A stretch of DNA of 10,619 nt from a virus (IMGVR_UViG_2778261593_000002:1-10619); one strand, 5' to 3'; shown: positions 2,866 to 10,619, numbered from the stretch's first letter. Program-made: numbers and translations. Notes: a model not told the origin generated them from the sequence alone.

Positions 2866-3021
2866 TTACTTCTCAGATTCGTAGTCTACGAAGACAGCAA
2901 CCTCCGTCTGGCCGGTTCGGATTCGTACCTCGCAGAGGTCTTTCCTCGTTACCAGTGCCGTCACTATGACGGTTAAACAGATGACGATCAGGGCGATTAA
3001 CATCGCCTTTTGCTGCTTCAT
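2866..3021 (-). CDS. hok: Hok/Gef-family type I toxin (small membrane peptide), 51 aa
   Basis: MKQQKAMLIALIVICLTVIVTALVTRKDLCEVRIRTGQTEVAVFVDYESEK is near-identical to Hok/Gef/RelF family sequences recalled from memory. ATG at 3021..3019 with AAGGAG Shine-Dalgarno 9 nt upstream. Confidence 0.9.
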   Translation of the reverse strand: MKQQKAMLIALIVICLTVIVTALVTRKDLCEVRIRTGQTEVAVFVDYESEK

Positions 3022-3078
3022 AGCCTGCTTCTCCTTGCCTTTCGGCACGTAAGAGGCTAACCTACATTTGTGAGACAT
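2866..3078 (-). CDS. mok: Mok-like in-frame N-terminally extended reading frame sharing the hok stop codon (70 aa)
   Basis: ATG at 3078..3076 with GAGG about 9 nt upstream; in frame with hok and adds 19 residues (MSHKCRLASYVPKGKEKQA). This mirrors the mokC/hokC arrangement (longer frame sharing the 3' end). Confidence 0.55.
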   Translation of the reverse strand: MSHKCRLASYVPKGKEKQAMKQQKAMLIALIVICLTVIVTALVTRKDLCEVRIRTGQTEVAVFVDYESEK

Positions 3079-3120
3079 AGATTGGGCCTCAGATTAATGT
3101 TAAGCGTCTTGCAGGACGCG
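3035..3120 (+). ncRNA. Candidate Sok-like antisense RNA region (promoter plus RNA) opposite the mok translation initiation region
   Basis: Plus strand TTGCCT (3035-3040) - 17 nt - TAACCT (3058-3063) would start transcription near 3070, antisense to the mok Shine-Dalgarno/ATG (3076-3095). A hairpin GCGTC-TTGCAG-GACGC lies at 3104-3119 but no clean U-run follows. Weak evidence. Confidence 0.25.
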
Positions 3121-3179
3121 TAATGTTAACTGGGGCTTTTCTCTATCTGCCTTTTGGTGTTCATGCCTGAGGCAGATAG

Positions 3180-3225
3180 CCTCAAGCACCCGCAGCAATT
3201 CTACTTAACTCTCCTTTTCCCGCAA
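3180..3225 (-). promoter_or_regulatory. Putative hok/mok promoter and mRNA 5' end
   Basis: Minus strand TTGCGG (3225..3220) - 16 nt - TAGAAT (3203..3198); predicted start near 3191, which coincides with the 5' partner (3193..3180) of the fold-back pairing. A 9-bp hairpin CTATCTGCC / GGCAGATAG (3144-3179) lies in the leader. Confidence 0.4.
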
Positions 3226-8058: not shown

Positions 8059-8151
8059 GAGTCGCTCCATAAAACTGAACGTCAAAAGTTTAATAATCAA
8101 AACCAAAAAAAGTCAAGAAACAAAACCATCTGTGTTTTAAAATCAAAACAT
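8059..8151. promoter_or_regulatory. Divergent immunity control region (OR-like): PR-like and PRM-like promoters with a palindromic operator
   Basis: Perfect inverted repeat TGTTTT-aaaatc-AAAACAT at 8133-8151, overlapping the CI start codon and a TAAAAT -10 (8138-8143). Minus strand has TTGACT at 8116..8111 followed by AT-rich -10 candidates for the cro-like gene. No Shine-Dalgarno precedes the CI ATG, suggesting a leaderless transcript. Confidence 0.55.
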
Positions 8152-8788
8152 GAGCAAGCAAACTATATCTGAACGCATAACCCAACGTATGCATGCGCTA
8201 AACCTGAAAGGCAAAGACCTTGTCAATGGCACTGGCGCATCAAAAGGCTCCGTAAGTCAATGGATGAACGGTGGAGGAGCGCCGTCCTCGCGTTACATAA
8301 GTTCACTGGCAAAAATATTGAAAGTAAACGAAAATTGGCTTCTTAATGGAGGAGAGTTAAATACAGGTGATTCGCTTGATCTATCTTTACCGCCGATAAA
8401 AACGGTTCCGCTACTATCACTTCAGCAGGCAGCAAGCTGGAGTGATTATATGAAAAATTCCTCAATAACCTCTTGTGTGCAGCTTGTCGGAGAAATCCCG
8501 GTCAATACCTTTGCAGTTGTTCTAGAGAGTGACAGTATGTCAACATCTGGTGGGGGAGTTTCCATCCCAAATGGTTCAACAGTTTTTGTTGATCCCGATC
8601 GAACCGTACAACCAGGAAATATTGTCCTTGCCTTACCCAAAGGGACCACAACACCTGTCATTCGTAAACTGGAGATAGAAGGGCCGGATATTCTTTTAGT
8701 CCCCACGAATCCTCGCTACCCTTCAATTATGCTGGATGATCTATCTTGCATATTGGGCGTATGCTTTAAAATTCAACAAGATATTTAA
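8150..8788 (+). CDS. CI-type prophage repressor with N-terminal HTH and C-terminal S24 (LexA-like) autopeptidase domain, 212 aa
   Basis: N-terminal HTH (ISERITQRMHALNLKGKDLVNGTGASKGSVSQW); C-terminal ESDSM...VFVDPDR...VIRKL...LVPTNPRYPSI parallels lambda CI motifs GDSM / VDPE / KKL / LNPQYPMI. Confidence 0.85.
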   Translation: MSKQTISERITQRMHALNLKGKDLVNGTGASKGSVSQWMNGGGAPSSRYISSLAKILKVNENWLLNGGELNTGDSLDLSLPPIKTVPLLSLQQAASWSDYMKNSSITSCVQLVGEIPVNTFAVVLESDSMSTSGGGVSIPNGSTVFVDPDRTVQPGNIVLALPKGTTTPVIRKLEIEGPDILLVPTNPRYPSIMLDDLSCILGVCFKIQQDI

Positions 8789-8901: not shown

Positions 8902-9080
8902 TCATTCATTCCCTCACCCCATCCTACAGAATGCAGGGCAATACTTCGAGTTACCAGGCAGTGGTCAGGGGTTAAGTAGCCAGCCCGAGGCGTAAGAACA
9001 TGACGGCAGGGTTCAACTTTAATAACTATGCAGCAGGTTTTTGTTCCGCTACCCCGGCGTTAAGGGGAAATGAGGTCAGC

Positions 9081-9236
9081 ATGGATACTATCGATCTTGG
9101 CAACAACGAATCTCTGGTGTGCGGCGTGTTTCCCAACCAGGACGGCACATTCACCGCGATGACGTATACCAAAAGCAAAACGTTTAAAACCGAAAATGGT
9201 GCCCGTCGCTGGCTGGAAAGAAACTCAGGTGAGTGA
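9081..9236 (+). CDS. YdfA/YdaF-like small protein, 51 aa
   Basis: ORF 9000..9236 trimmed to ATG 9081 with GAGG 7 nt upstream; size and position as first gene after the repressor match ydfA of the Qin dicB operon. Identity is inferred from position and size, not sequence recall. Confidence 0.55.
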   Translation: MDTIDLGNNESLVCGVFPNQDGTFTAMTYTKSKTFKTENGARRWLERNSGE

Positions 9237-9237
9237 T

Positions 9238-9366
9238 ATGGATTTCGACACAATCATGGAAAAGGCTTACGAAGAATACTTCGAAGGCCTTGCCGAAGGC
9301 GAAGAAGCTCTCAGCTTCAGTGAGTTTAAACAGGCGCTTTCCAGTTCGGCAAAATCTAACGGCTGA
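9238..9366 (+). CDS. YdfB-like small acidic protein, 42 aa (below the ORF-track cutoff)
   Basis: ATG at 9238, 1 nt after the upstream stop, with AGGTGAG upstream; translation MDFDTIMEKAYEEYFEGLAEGEEALSFSEFKQALSSSAKSNG; TGA at 9364-9366. Confidence 0.5.
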   Translation: MDFDTIMEKAYEEYFEGLAEGEEALSFSEFKQALSSSAKSNG

Positions 9367-9396
9367 TAAGCGAAATAGCACCGCGAGGAATTCAGT

Positions 9397-9612
9397 ATGA
9401 AGAAACAAGAACCCGTCATCATCGCGCCAGACTATACCGATGATGAAATTTACGAATGGATGTGCGGGAAGATACGCGCCATTAATGACCTGAAGCAGGC
9501 TGCTGACTACAAAGAGCGCCTCTCTAAAGAGCTGGCGTCAGCGGAGCAGGATATTACCTCTCTGGCAAAAAACGCGGCATTAAACGTTTCGCGAGTGATT
9601 GCAAACTACTGA
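9397..9612 (+). CDS. YdfC-like small protein, 71 aa
   Basis: ATG 9397 with GAGGAA 9 nt upstream; third small gene of the operon, matching ydfC in position and size. Confidence 0.55.
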   Translation: MKKQEPVIIAPDYTDDEIYEWMCGKIRAINDLKQAADYKERLSKELASAEQDITSLAKNAALNVSRVIANY

Positions 9613-9627
9613 CCGATGAGGTTGACG

Positions 9628-9807
9628 ATGAATGAGACAGAACTTAAACACGTTATTGCCTTGCTTCTGGAAGATGCAAAACGCTTACATGAACTGGAAC
9701 CCAATGCAGGCACAGAGGCCCGCATTTGGTTAGCAAAAAAATGCCTGGATAGTAAAAGTTTTCAGAAAGAAATAACAATCAGTTTTGAGAATTCGCCTCA
9801 TCTATGA
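9628..9807 (+). CDS. Hypothetical small protein, 59 aa
   Basis: ORF 9616..9807; second ATG at 9628 has GAGG 8 nt upstream; its 3' end overlaps a convergent minus-strand ORF by 29 nt. Confidence 0.35.
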   Translation: MNETELKHVIALLLEDAKRLHELEPNAGTEARIWLAKKCLDSKSFQKEITISFENSPHL

Positions 9808-10009
9808 ATTGTTGAATCAGGTTTGCTAATTCAGTGGCATGTTTATCACCTGTGCTTTTTAAAGCATCTGTTACACAATCTGAGCGAAGTTCTGGCGGAA
9901 GTCTTGTTGCCATCAAAGCTATCGCGAGCTTAATGGCTCTTAACTCAGCATTTATTCCATCATGGGATAAATCATTATTAATAGTGGTTTTTATTGTGTT
10001 CAAAATCAC
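9779..10009 (-). CDS. Hypothetical small helical protein, about 74-76 aa, antisense to the surrounding operon
   Basis: AGGAGG at 10015..10010 sits right at the GTG (10009..10007); a TTG at 10003..10001 gives 6-nt spacing. Composition looks protein-like (LRAIKLAIALMATRLPPELRSDCVTDALK). Confidence 0.4.
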   Translation of the reverse strand: MILNTIKTTINNDLSHDGINAELRAIKLAIALMATRLPPELRSDCVTDALKSTGDKHATELANLIQQFIDEANSQN

Positions 10010-10337
10010 CCTCCTGAGGGTTGTTAATTAAGGAGTTCTCCACGGGTCAGGTGGAGTGCGTGCGCCGGACACGGGTGAGCATCCGGCACTGACAGTTTAC
10101 TGAAAGGATATATCCCTGAAAAGTCAGGGCATAACGCGAAAGCGCACGGCGAAGTTATTTCTCCCTCTGTTGCGTGCCACCGGCATCTTCGACCGTGCGC
10201 TTCCGGTTGTGGCAATCCGCGAAATGGCGCGGCGGTAAGTATGGCGGGGTTATTCTTTCCCCGTTGAGGACACCGGGTTGTCAGGTTGACCATACGCTTA
10301 AGTGACAACCCCGCTGCAACGCCCTCTGTTATCAATA

Positions 10338-10394
10338 TTCTGGTGACATTTGGCGGTATCAGTTTTACTCCGTGACTGCTCTGCCGCCCTTTTT
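10338..10394 (+). ncRNA. dicF: DicF small regulatory RNA with its Rho-independent terminator
   Basis: TTCTGGTGACATTTGGCGGTATCAGTTTTACTCCGTGACTGCTCTGCCGCCCTTTTTT matches the E. coli DicF sequence as I recall it with one or two substitutions; GGCGG...CCGCC stem followed by a T-run; position between ydfC-like and dicB-like genes. Confidence 0.8.
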
Positions 10395-10574
10395 TAAAAG
10401 TGAATTTTGTGATGCGGTGAATGCGGCTCAGCGCACGCGGAACAGTTAAATCGGTAAAGCGGTCATTTGCTGAGTAACGGGAATGCTCTGTATCCGGCGT
10501 TAATTGTTAACTGGTTAACGTCACCTGGAGGCACCAGGCACTGCATCACAAAATTCATTGTTGAGGACGCGATA

Positions 10575-10619
10575 ATGGAAAAGTTATCATACAATGCCAG
10601 TACGTCTGAACTTCGTTTC
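10575..10619 (+). CDS. Window-truncated start of a DicB-like cell-division inhibitor gene
   Basis: ATG 10575 with GAGGA 7 nt upstream; MEKLSYNASTSELRF shares about 7 of 15 residues with the N-terminus of E. coli DicB as I recall it (MKTLLPNVNTSEGCF), and sits downstream of DicF as dicB does. Confidence 0.4.
   Translation, partial: MEKLSYNASTSELRF

What the first reader, a model, noticed from the sequence alone, without database searches (positions are those of the whole stretch)
10024..10337. GC-rich structured leader upstream of DicF with a 9-bp perfect hairpin and a 10-bp palindrome
The roughly 300 bp before DicF is GC-rich with multiple inverted repeats: GGGTTGTCA / TGACAACCC (10275-10283 / 10303-10311, 19-nt loop), the palindrome GGATATATCC (about 10104-10113), and several GTGCGC / GCGCAC pairs. 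DicF is released from a precursor by RNase III and RNase E processing, so these are candidate processing structures. The minus-strand ORF called here is probably spurious.
Basis: partly seen in the sequence, partly recalled or inferred. Interest (0 to 1): 0.35.

Follow-up and report, generated by a model that had tools for sequence, protein, structure and literature searches.

The report
Conserved knotted RNA fold before DicF
The stretch in front of the small RNA DicF is its known untranslated precursor, but its best hairpin is one arm of a 115-base knotted RNA fold of unknown function, kept in enterobacterial phages and about four of five E. coli genomes.

Summary
The region is real, non-coding and read on the + strand. 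It is the ydfC-dicF spacer of the prophage dicBF (early-left) operon, about 89% identical to E. coli K-12 Qin. It has three parts.

1. A poorly constrained 5' part (10024-10129). Its 10-bp palindrome is at chance level and is not conserved.
2. A long imperfect hairpin (10130-10154 / 10187-10211). It holds the GCGCAC/GTGCGC pair and fits the published RNase III cut that makes the 190-nt DicF species.
3. A 115-nt domain (10206-10320): a four-way junction plus a pseudoknot.

The domain has strong covariation. No Rfam family matches it, and I found no paper describing it. It also occurs without DicF:
- at the start of the early-left operon of lambdoid phages that lack an N gene;
- about 15-25 nt after the repressor-controlled Pban start of phage P1;
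- in P1-like 90-kb elements;
- between Q and the lysis genes of other prophages.

A terminator follows it in nearly all contexts. My best guess (about 35-40%) is a cis-acting element, put-like in logic, that lets RNA polymerase pass that terminator. It is not a detectable relative of put. Processing scaffold and host-factor decoy remain live alternatives.

The parts
10024..10129 (+). 5' part of the ydfC-dicF type leader: local hairpins, including CCCTGA-AAAG-TCAGGG at 10114-10129, and the palindrome GGATATATCC at 10106-10115
   Evidence: About 90% identical to K-12 Qin. Local fold z is only -1.8. The palindrome and the 10114-10129 hairpin are both broken in K-12. The palindrome is at chance level.
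10130..10211 (+). Long imperfect hairpin, the candidate RNase III substrate. Arms are 10130-10154 and 10187-10211; the apical part 10155-10186 is variable. The inferred cut that makes the 5' end of the 190-nt DicF species is near 10200/10201.
   Evidence: repeat I1; dG -40.3, z -3.6, and the same stem forms in K-12 although its apical loop sequence is different; the arms are conserved. The cut position is inferred from the 190-nt length given in PMC10448788; it was not measured here.
10206..10320 (+). Conserved 115-nt RNA domain, a four-way junction plus a pseudoknot. P1 is 10206-10213 / 10313-10320. P2 is 10217-10221 / 10228-10232. The pseudoknot is 10239-10244 (GUAUGG) with 10290-10295 (CCAUAC). 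P3 is 10245-10249 / 10259-10263.
   Evidence: Alignments A1 and A2. Pair counts. Covariance model R1. The MFE fold of the 190-nt species gives the same P1-P4. No Rfam family matches.
10275..10311 (+). Its 19-nt loop L4 is 10284-10302. The loop has the constant parts GGUUGA and CYURAG, and its middle (CCAUAC) forms the pseudoknot.
   Evidence: The inner 7 pairs are kept through complete sequence replacement in four other subfamilies. The pseudoknot is 98% paired, with three pairs changed on both sides.
10321..10337 (+). A/U-rich linker between the domain and DicF. The RNase E cut that makes the DicF 5' end falls at its 3' edge. It is predicted to pair with the DicF seed (10327-10334 with 10341-10348), which would leave the cut site in a loop.
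   Evidence: prediction only. RNase E dependence comes from PMC10448788 and PMC5069750.
10338..10395 (+). DicF sRNA (10338-10389), with its terminator hairpin and T run
   Evidence: Rfam RF00039, 77 bits, E 4.8e-16

Best explanation
Shown:
- 10024-10337 is the untranslated leader of the prophage early-left (dicBF-type) operon, read on the + strand. DicF is cut from it.
- It holds a long hairpin (10130-10211) that matches the published RNase III step.
- Directly after that hairpin lies a 115-nt four-way-junction and pseudoknot domain (10206-10320). This domain forms the body of the known 190-nt DicF species.
- The domain is an independent, mobile phage RNA module. It is found with and without DicF, always co-oriented with the operon around it, and in most contexts shortly upstream of an intrinsic terminator.

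Inferred, about 35-40% likely:
- The folded nascent domain acts in cis on the transcribing RNA polymerase, in the way HK022 put RNA does.
- A share of polymerases would then read through the DicF-type terminator, and the long untranslated stretch, into dicB, the exonuclease gene, xis and int.
- These phages have no N protein, which does this job in lambda.
- RNase III and RNase E would then trim the same RNA to the 190-nt and 53-nt species.
For: Identity and processing:
- DicF lies at 10338.
- The region is 89% identical over 97% of its length to the K-12 spacer between ydfC and dicB.
- The repressor, a DUF1391 gene and YdfC-like genes lie upstream.
- The 190-nt (RNase III) and 53-nt (RNase E) species are published.
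- The long hairpin places the 190-nt 5' end in its 3' arm.

Structure:
- 45 canonical copies: 94.5% of cells paired, 8 pairs changed on both sides, 0 of 500 shuffles as good.
- Five subfamilies: covariation score 0.461 against 0.14 for shuffles and at most 0.09 for slid partners. The pseudoknot is 98% paired, as AU/CG/UA at one position and UA/CG/GC/AU/UG at another.
- G-U pairs fit only the + strand.
- The MFE fold reproduces P1-P4.

Context:
- P1: the domain starts about 15-25 nt after the C1-controlled Pban start. An 8-bp terminator with a T6 run follows, and ban lies 2.4 kb further on.
- cdtI: an 11-of-12 pL promoter, then 283 nt with no ORF, then the domain, a terminator and the first gene.
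- All 76 distinct canonical downstream contexts have a stable hairpin ending in a T run within 140 nt (a crude detector; also read by eye).
- No N-like protein is seen in the early-left operons of the window, Tritos, mEp460, cdtI, F1055 or pPE4.
- N-less lambdoid phages are a recognised open case (PMC12315714).
- From my own knowledge, not checked here: P1 bac-1 lysogens express ban with the rest of the prophage repressed, so the leader terminator is passed without lytic phage proteins.
- K-12 makes both a dicF-terminated transcript and a longer dicB-ydfD transcript.
Against: - No experiment links the domain to termination.
- The domain has no detectable relation to put. Model R1 finds neither putL nor putR of HK022, even with filters off. 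Local alignment scores are no better than shuffles, p 0.15-0.33.
- In the window and in K-12 the domain lies about 1.3 kb from the presumed pL, behind translated genes, not next to the promoter.
- Subfamilies C and D lie between a Q antiterminator gene and the lysis genes, where Q should already make polymerase termination-resistant.
- Subfamily B1 is followed within about 10 nt by a tRNA-like element, not a terminator.
- Terminators are common in such leaders anyway, and my terminator count had no matched control.
Confidence: 0.4

Rival explanations
1. Processing and stability scaffold. The domain is a rigid, nuclease-resistant block. It fixes the ends of the small RNA next to it and presents the single-stranded linker to RNase E or RNase P. 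That small RNA is DicF, another seed-plus-terminator module, or a tRNA-like element. The domain would have no effect on polymerase.
For: - The domain is bracketed by the RNase III cut (about 10200) and the RNase E cut (10337/10338).
- The linker is predicted to hold the cut site in a loop.
- Canonical copies carry different sequences between domain and terminator. Only some reach the DicF threshold.
- B1 copies are followed at 7-10 nt by a tRNA-like element without an anticodon arm, an RNase P-type end-maker.
Against: - P1 has the domain and a terminator with only about 7 nt between them, so there is no small RNA to release.
- A mere block would not need near-constant loop and junction nucleotides plus a covarying pseudoknot across subfamilies.
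Confidence: 0.25
2. Trans-acting early RNA. The domain, with its terminator, is a stable non-coding RNA made as soon as the repressor is lost. It would bind and divert a host machine such as a ribonuclease, RNA polymerase, the ribosome or a defence protein.
For: - In P1 and cdtI it is the first RNA made from a repressor-controlled promoter, and it ends at a terminator about 170-450 nt from the start.
- The 190-nt species accumulates in K-12.
- The constant loops look like a recognition surface.
- The common partner must come from the host, because the phage backgrounds differ.
Against: - The domain is always co-oriented with, and embedded in, an operon, never a free-standing gene.
- No partner is known.
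- In K-12 no internal promoter was found.
Confidence: 0.15
3. Ligand-sensing attenuator (riboswitch). The junction and pseudoknot would bind a metabolite and set the efficiency of the terminator that follows.
For: - The architecture (a closed multi-helix junction, a pseudoknot, constant junction nucleotides, then a terminator) resembles transcriptional riboswitches.
Against: - I saw no conserved alternative pairing between the domain and the very different terminators of the window, cdtI and P1.
- B1 copies have no terminator at all.
- No Rfam riboswitch family matches.
Confidence: 0.07
4. One reading: all the inverted repeats, including the 9-bp hairpin and the palindrome, are simply RNase III or RNase E recognition structures for releasing DicF.
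For: - This holds for the long hairpin 10130-10211.
Against: - The 9-bp stem is kept by covariation in phages without DicF.
- It is too short for RNase III.
- The palindrome is not conserved.
Confidence: 0.05
5. The minus-strand ORF 10024-10335 (103 codons) is a real gene, and the conservation reflects its protein.
For: - The frame is open in the window.
- It is open for at least 100 codons in 22 of 42 distinct homologues.
Against: - It has no Pfam or PHROG match, while all five neighbouring small ORFs have PHROG matches.
- It is unannotated in 4346 RefSeq records.
- It is truncated in 20 of 42 homologues, and region lengths differ by 2-5 nt.
- The conserved core recurs in P1 and other contexts with paired, not codon-wise, changes and with G-U pairs.
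Confidence: 0.02

Closest known systems
ydfC-dicF leader and the 190-nt DicF species of the dicBF operon, Qin prophage, E. coli K-12 (Faubladier 1990; Ragunathan 2023, PMC10448788)
   Same: - It is the same sequence: 89% identity over 97% of the region.
- It has the same neighbours and the same DicF.
- The long hairpin and the domain are both present in K-12.
   Different: - The window has two extra small ORFs (9616-9807 on the + strand and 9779-10009 on the - strand) between the ydfC-like gene and the leader.
- The papers I could read describe the cuts and the RNA sizes, not the folded domain, its pseudoknot or its presence outside dicF loci.
put RNAs (putL, putR) of phage HK022, and putL of HK639: protein-independent processive antiterminator RNAs (PMC9378689)
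   Same: - Both are cis-encoded, strongly conserved folded RNAs in early operons of lambdoid phages that lack N.
- Both lie upstream of terminators.
- In P1 and cdtI the domain sits at put-like distances from the promoter.
   Different: - put is about 70 nt with two stems in a V shape and a small triplex. This domain is 115 nt, a four-way junction plus a pseudoknot.
- There is no covariance-model or sequence similarity.
- There is one copy per phage record, whereas HK022 has two put sites.
- The domain is also found in late-operon leaders.
- Activity on polymerase is untested.
'dicF-like region' annotated in the P1 genome record (NC_005856, 68791-68892), in the leader of the C1-controlled ban operon
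   Same: - It is the same domain, with compensatory changes in P3, P4 and the pseudoknot.
   Different: - The P1 annotation marks only similarity to the dicF locus. It starts inside the domain, which runs from about 68720.
- P1 has no DicF by Rfam.
nutL and the N protein of phage lambda
   Same: - Same position in the genome map: the early-left leader between the repressor gene and kil and the recombination genes.
   Different: - No N-like gene is seen.
- The hairpin CCCUGA-AAAG-UCAGGG at 10114-10129 only loosely recalls boxB (my recollection of boxB, not tested) and is broken in K-12.

Membership tests
DicF precursor / dicBF operon leader (K-12 Qin) | DicF sRNA directly downstream on the same strand | tested here: met
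   Rfam RF00039, 77 bits, 10338-10389 on the + strand
DicF precursor / dicBF operon leader (K-12 Qin) | Sequence homology to the K-12 ydfC-dicF spacer and the same gene neighbourhood | tested here: met
   89.2% identity over 97% of the region to a K-12-type chromosome, lying between ydfC and dicB. The window has a repressor, a DUF1391 gene and YdfC-like ORFs upstream. The ATG at 10576 matches the dicB start of the 98% identical relative.
DicF precursor / dicBF operon leader (K-12 Qin) | RNase III cut giving a 190-nt species and RNase E cut giving the 53-nt DicF | not testable with these tools
   The long hairpin has its 3' arm over the predicted cut site, and its arms match K-12 except one G-C to G-U change. 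Cleavage itself is taken from PMC10448788.
put antiterminator RNA (HK022/HK639) | About 70 nt, two-stem V-shaped fold with put consensus sequence | tested here: not met
   This domain is a 115-nt four-way junction plus pseudoknot. Model R1 finds nothing at putL or putR, even with filters off. Alignment scores are within shuffles.
put antiterminator RNA (HK022/HK639) | Lies in an early operon downstream of the promoter and upstream of terminators, in a phage without N | tested here: met
   P1; cdtI; Tritos and mEp460; no N-like ORFs. In the window the domain lies about 1.3 kb from the presumed pL.
put antiterminator RNA (HK022/HK639) | Suppresses termination and pausing by binding the beta' zinc-binding domain of RNA polymerase | not testable with these tools
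   Needs transcription assays and rpoC mutants.
Any curated RNA family (Rfam 15) | Covariance-model match to 10024-10337 | tested here: not met
   No match at gathering score. No match at E up to 10 with permissive filters over 9700-10619. None in P1, B1, C or D loci apart from tRNAs.
Transcriptional riboswitch / attenuator | Conserved mutually exclusive pairing between the sensor and the terminator | tested here: inconclusive
   Terminators differ in sequence between the window, cdtI and P1. B1 copies have none. I saw no shared anti-terminator by eye, but I made no formal search.
Protein-coding gene (minus-strand ORF 10024-10335) | Frame kept in relatives and a family match | tested here: not met
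   No Pfam or PHROG match. The frame is open for at least 100 codons in only 22 of 42 distinct homologues.

The most novel reading that the evidence does not exclude
The 115-nt domain is a second, structurally unrelated class of protein-independent antiterminator RNA. N-less lambdoid phages of the Qin, cdtI and Stx2c early-left type, and P1-like phages, would use it to carry early transcription past the first terminator and through long untranslated stretches. If so, the long-known 190-nt DicF RNA is mostly this element, and it sits unrecognised in about 80% of E. coli genomes.
Probability: 0.3. Interest if true: 0.85.

Novelty: new variant of a known kind. Interest (0 to 1): 0.6.

Why it matters
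DicF and its operon have been studied since the 1980s in the best-known bacterium. Even so, the most conserved part of its precursor appears to have no description, no Rfam family and no known function. That part is a pseudoknotted four-way junction found in 4316 of 5426 complete E. coli genomes, in P1, in Stx2c and cdtI phages and in late-operon leaders.

If it controls read-through, it would explain how lambdoid phages without an N gene express kil/dicB, the recombination genes, xis and int. It would also explain how P1 expresses ban. It would add a second RNA class to the one known example, put. It would also bear on when the toxic dicB and dicF products of cryptic prophages are made.

If instead it binds a host factor or shapes small-RNA processing, it is still a new, easily testable RNA module with a clear structural model.

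Tried and rejected
- Rfam at gathering score and at E up to 10 gave nothing for the region.
- put homology was rejected as membership. Model R1 gave no hit on HK022 with default filters or with filters off. Smith-Waterman scores were no better than shuffles. The short shared strings I saw by eye (GCGCGGCGG; CAGGUUGA against CAGGAUGA) are therefore not evidence.
- A 16-nt pattern scan of genome contigs was too short.
- The weak R1 hits L260, L265, L267 and L332 are chance matches. L332 lies antisense to the start of a secretin-like ORF and lacks the L4 loop.
- Several hits to the L4 pattern in viral contigs are chance matches without the domain's helices (L276-L278, L280, L283, L285, L286, L290, L291, L293, L295, L297, L305, L312, L325, L328) and were left out.
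- boxB/nut reading of 10114-10129: the hairpin is broken in K-12.
- Reading GGUAAGUAUGG as a sigma-dependent pause (-10-like) element: the motif is not kept in subfamily B, and the pseudoknot explains its conservation better.
- Any relation of the domain to tmRNA or tRNA: no Rfam hit.
- The King 2011 (put-like RNAs) and Lobocka 2004 (P1 genome) papers were not held.

Full report
**What is at the coordinates**

The window is a 10.6-kb fragment of a lambdoid phage. On the + strand it carries:
- an S24/HTH repressor gene (8150-8788);
- four small early-left ORFs (9000-9807; DUF1391 and YdfA-C-type PHROGs);
- then, on the - strand, one convergent small ORF (9779-10009);
- then the flagged stretch 10024-10337, with no credible gene;
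- DicF at 10338-10389 (Rfam RF00039, 77 bits);
- the start of a dicB-type gene at 10576.

The palindrome is 2 nt further on, at 10106-10115. GC content is 0.55 against 0.37-0.49 around it. Taken alone the repeats are weak evidence. A perfect inverted repeat of at least 9 bp turns up in 10 of 300 shuffles, and a palindrome of at least 10 bp in 103 of 300.

**It is the known DicF precursor**

The stretch matches 4316 of 5426 complete E. coli genomes and is never annotated. In a K-12-type chromosome it is the spacer between ydfC and dicB of the Qin prophage. Published work shows the following (PMC10448788; PMC5069750):
- DicF is cut from the polycistronic dicBF transcript.
- RNase III makes the 5' end of a 190-nt species.
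- RNase E makes the 5' end of the 53-nt DicF.
- No internal promoter was found.

Counting 190 nt back from the DicF 3' end gives about 10200/10201. That position lies in the 3' arm of a long imperfect hairpin, 10130-10154 / 10187-10211 (dG -40.3 kcal/mol, z -3.6). K-12 forms the same stem although its apical loop sequence is different. The cut position itself is inferred, not measured.

The palindrome, and the boxB-looking hairpin at 10114-10129, are broken in K-12 and in the closest relative. I set both aside.

**The 9-bp hairpin belongs to something else**

A search of phage genomes showed that window 10206-10328 is conserved on its own, in records without the rest of the leader:
- phage cdtI, Stx2c phages, phage 2H10, Salmonella phage F1055 and a phage deposited as an Actinobacillus phage;
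- more distantly, P1, P7 and related phage-plasmids.

The alignment shows near-constant blocks separated by a variable hairpin, with paired changes. From 45 distinct canonical copies I derived a four-way junction:
- P1: 10206-13 / 10313-20.
- P2: 10217-21 / 10228-32.
- P3: 10245-49 / 10259-63.
- A pseudoknot between GUAUGG (10239-44) and CCAUAC (10290-95), which lies inside the P4 loop.

In this set 94.5% of cells pair, 8 pairs change on both sides, and no shuffle out of 500 does as well. The unconstrained MFE fold of the 190-nt species gives the same P1-P4.

One caveat applies. Those 45 copies were collected with a pattern that fixed two conserved blocks, so the invariance of those columns is partly by construction. 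The copies found by BLAST, which were not constrained that way, show the same blocks.

**Diverged subfamilies give the real covariation**

I used a covariance model (R1) and a search for copies with a different middle of the P4 loop. These found four further groups:
- B1 and B2, in about 90-kb P1-like contigs.
- C and D, in prophage late regions.

The constant parts of the loop (GGUUGA, CYURAG) stay. The helices are rewritten:
- P4 reads GGGUUGUCA/UGACAACCC, GUUGCCA/UGGCAAC, GCGGACA/UGUCCGC, GGCAUCA/UGAUGCC or AUAGUCA/UGACUAU.
- The pseudoknot reads GUAUGG/CCAUAC, GCAUGG/CCAUGC, AUCUGG/CCAGAU, GACUGG/CCAGUC, GCUGG/CCAGC or UCUUGG/CCAAGG.

I counted pairs on 28 distinct sequences (alignment A5). 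Each row is the pseudoknot 5' strand joined to P4, with P3 left out. One N was inserted in the five shorter loops to keep register. Results:
- 90.9% of cells pair.
- The covariation score is 0.461, against 0.14 for shuffles (0 of 500) and at most 0.09 for slid partners.
- The pseudoknot is 98% paired, with three pairs changed on both sides.
- G-U pairs occur, which fits RNA read on the + strand only.
- Three of the six pseudoknot pairs (UGG/CCA) were fixed by my selection and carry no information.

Rfam 15 has no family for the domain, and my literature searches found no description. A sample of 401 genomes of the same family, as drawn from an E. albertii genome, gave 10 strong hits and one diverged true hit. 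A class-wide sample of 400 genomes gave none that survived inspection.

**Contexts**

- Canonical copies sit in the early-left operon, co-oriented with it, upstream of dicB or kil, an exonuclease gene, xis and int.
- In cdtI a near-consensus pL promoter is followed by 283 nt with no ORF, then the domain, a terminator, and only then the first gene.
- In P1 the domain starts about 15-25 nt after the start of the C1-controlled Pban. It is followed after 7 nt by an 8-bp terminator with a T6 run. The tRNA genes and ban lie 0.5-2.4 kb further on.
- All 76 distinct canonical downstream sequences hold a stable hairpin ending in a T run within 140 nt. My detector was crude and had no matched control. 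By eye each has a GGCGG...CCGCC-type hairpin, or a similar one, followed by a run of four or more T.
- The piece between domain and terminator varies. Only some copies are DicF by Rfam. The domain is therefore more widespread than DicF.
- B1 copies are followed after 7-10 nt by a tRNA-like element that lacks an anticodon arm.
- C and D copies lie between a Q-type antiterminator gene and the holin and endolysin genes. A strong terminator lies 90-320 nt downstream.
- I saw no N-like protein in any of the early-left operons examined. A 2025 survey notes lambdoid phages without N and only guesses at a put-type mechanism for them.

**What it most likely does**

The pattern I have to explain is this:
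- a strongly conserved fold with constant loops;
- always inside an operon and on its strand;
- usually just before a terminator, and at the very start of repressor-controlled operons in P1 and cdtI;
- carried by phages that lack N.

This is the logic of HK022 put RNA, which folds on the nascent transcript, binds the beta' zinc-binding domain and makes polymerase ignore terminators.

Two further points fit a phage-protein-independent read-through, though they do not prove it. First, from my own knowledge and not checked here, P1 bac-1 lysogens express ban while the rest of the prophage is repressed. Second, K-12 makes both a dicF-terminated and a longer dicB-ydfD transcript.

I therefore commit to a cis-acting, put-like read-through element as the single most likely function, at about 35-40%. 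Membership in the put family is another matter, and it failed. The fold is different, and neither the covariance model nor sequence alignment sees any relation.

Against the functional idea:
- C and D copies sit next to Q.
- B1 copies sit in front of a tRNA-like element rather than a terminator.
- In the window the domain is 1.3 kb from the promoter.

**Rivals**

- A processing and stability scaffold for the adjacent small RNA (25%). This fits the bracketing RNase III and RNase E cuts, the swapped seed modules and the tRNA-like end-maker. It does not explain P1, where there is nothing to release, or the constant loops.
- A trans-acting early RNA that diverts a host factor (15%).
- A ligand-sensing attenuator (7%). 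I saw no shared expression platform.
- A minus-strand gene (2%). It has no family match, and the frame is truncated in 20 of 42 distinct homologues.

One window-specific detail is inferred only. The 5' strand of P1 (GUUGUG, 10206-10211) is also the end of the RNase III hairpin, where it pairs with CAUAAC at 10130-10135. The domain's closing helix and the uncut long hairpin therefore compete, and RNase III cleavage would free P1.

**Verdict**

- The main hairpin is part of an apparently undescribed, well-supported RNA domain whose function is open.
- Earlier notes of this scan reach similar conclusions. They are not independent evidence, and I re-derived the structure, the contexts and the put test here.

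Noticed in passing
window 3016-3191 (-): A sok antisense RNA of a hok/sok-type toxin-antitoxin locus (Rfam RF01794, 121.7 bits). The same family is in related loci L138 and L108.
   Followed up: no
window 10403-10552 (+): The leader between DicF and the dicB start gives a sub-threshold match to the Salmonella prophage sRNA family STnc100 (31.6 bits, gathering score 47, model positions 21-154 of 206). The start of this stretch (about the first 50 nt after the T run) is conserved downstream of most canonical copies, whatever module precedes it.
   Followed up: partly
window 9779-10009 (-) and 9616-9807 (+): Two small ORFs lie here that K-12 lacks between ydfC and the leader. They overlap at their 3' ends, and the minus-strand one (phrog_7249) faces against the operon.
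   Followed up: no
L004 (phage P1) 2706-2738 (+), just after the leader terminator: A short frame reads ANDDLMMVAA-stop. From memory, not checked here, this resembles the tag template of tmRNA. Earlier notes of this scan describe a tmRNA-like module here. No Rfam tmRNA hit was reported for this locus at gathering score.
   Followed up: partly
L294 3567-3627 (-), L274 6527-6599 (+): In P1-like 90-kb contigs the domain is followed after 7-10 nt by a tRNA-like element. It has an acceptor stem, D arm and T arm but little or no anticodon arm. It comes in two different sequence versions (Rfam tRNA 48.3 bits; ARAGORN gives an odd 'tRNA-Phe').
   Followed up: partly
loci L005, L006, L030, L089, L108, L109, L138, L254, downstream of the domain: The piece between the domain and the terminator hairpin differs between copies: the DicF seed UUCUGGUGA, AACCCAUGUUGAUUACC, or none. 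The terminator stays alike across the copies. Only L030 of nine loci tested reaches the DicF threshold. This may be a family of small RNAs with swapped seeds.
   Followed up: partly
L089 1171-1359, L108 11185-11380, L005 40-228: isrK and C4 antisense RNA (with a1/b1 targets in L108) lie together in the same prophages that carry the domain.
   Followed up: no
L261 434-468 (+): A 15-bp perfect terminator hairpin lies right after the Q-like gene. It looks like the tR' of a short late leader RNA. The domain lies 1 kb further on, behind a lipoprotein gene.
   Followed up: no
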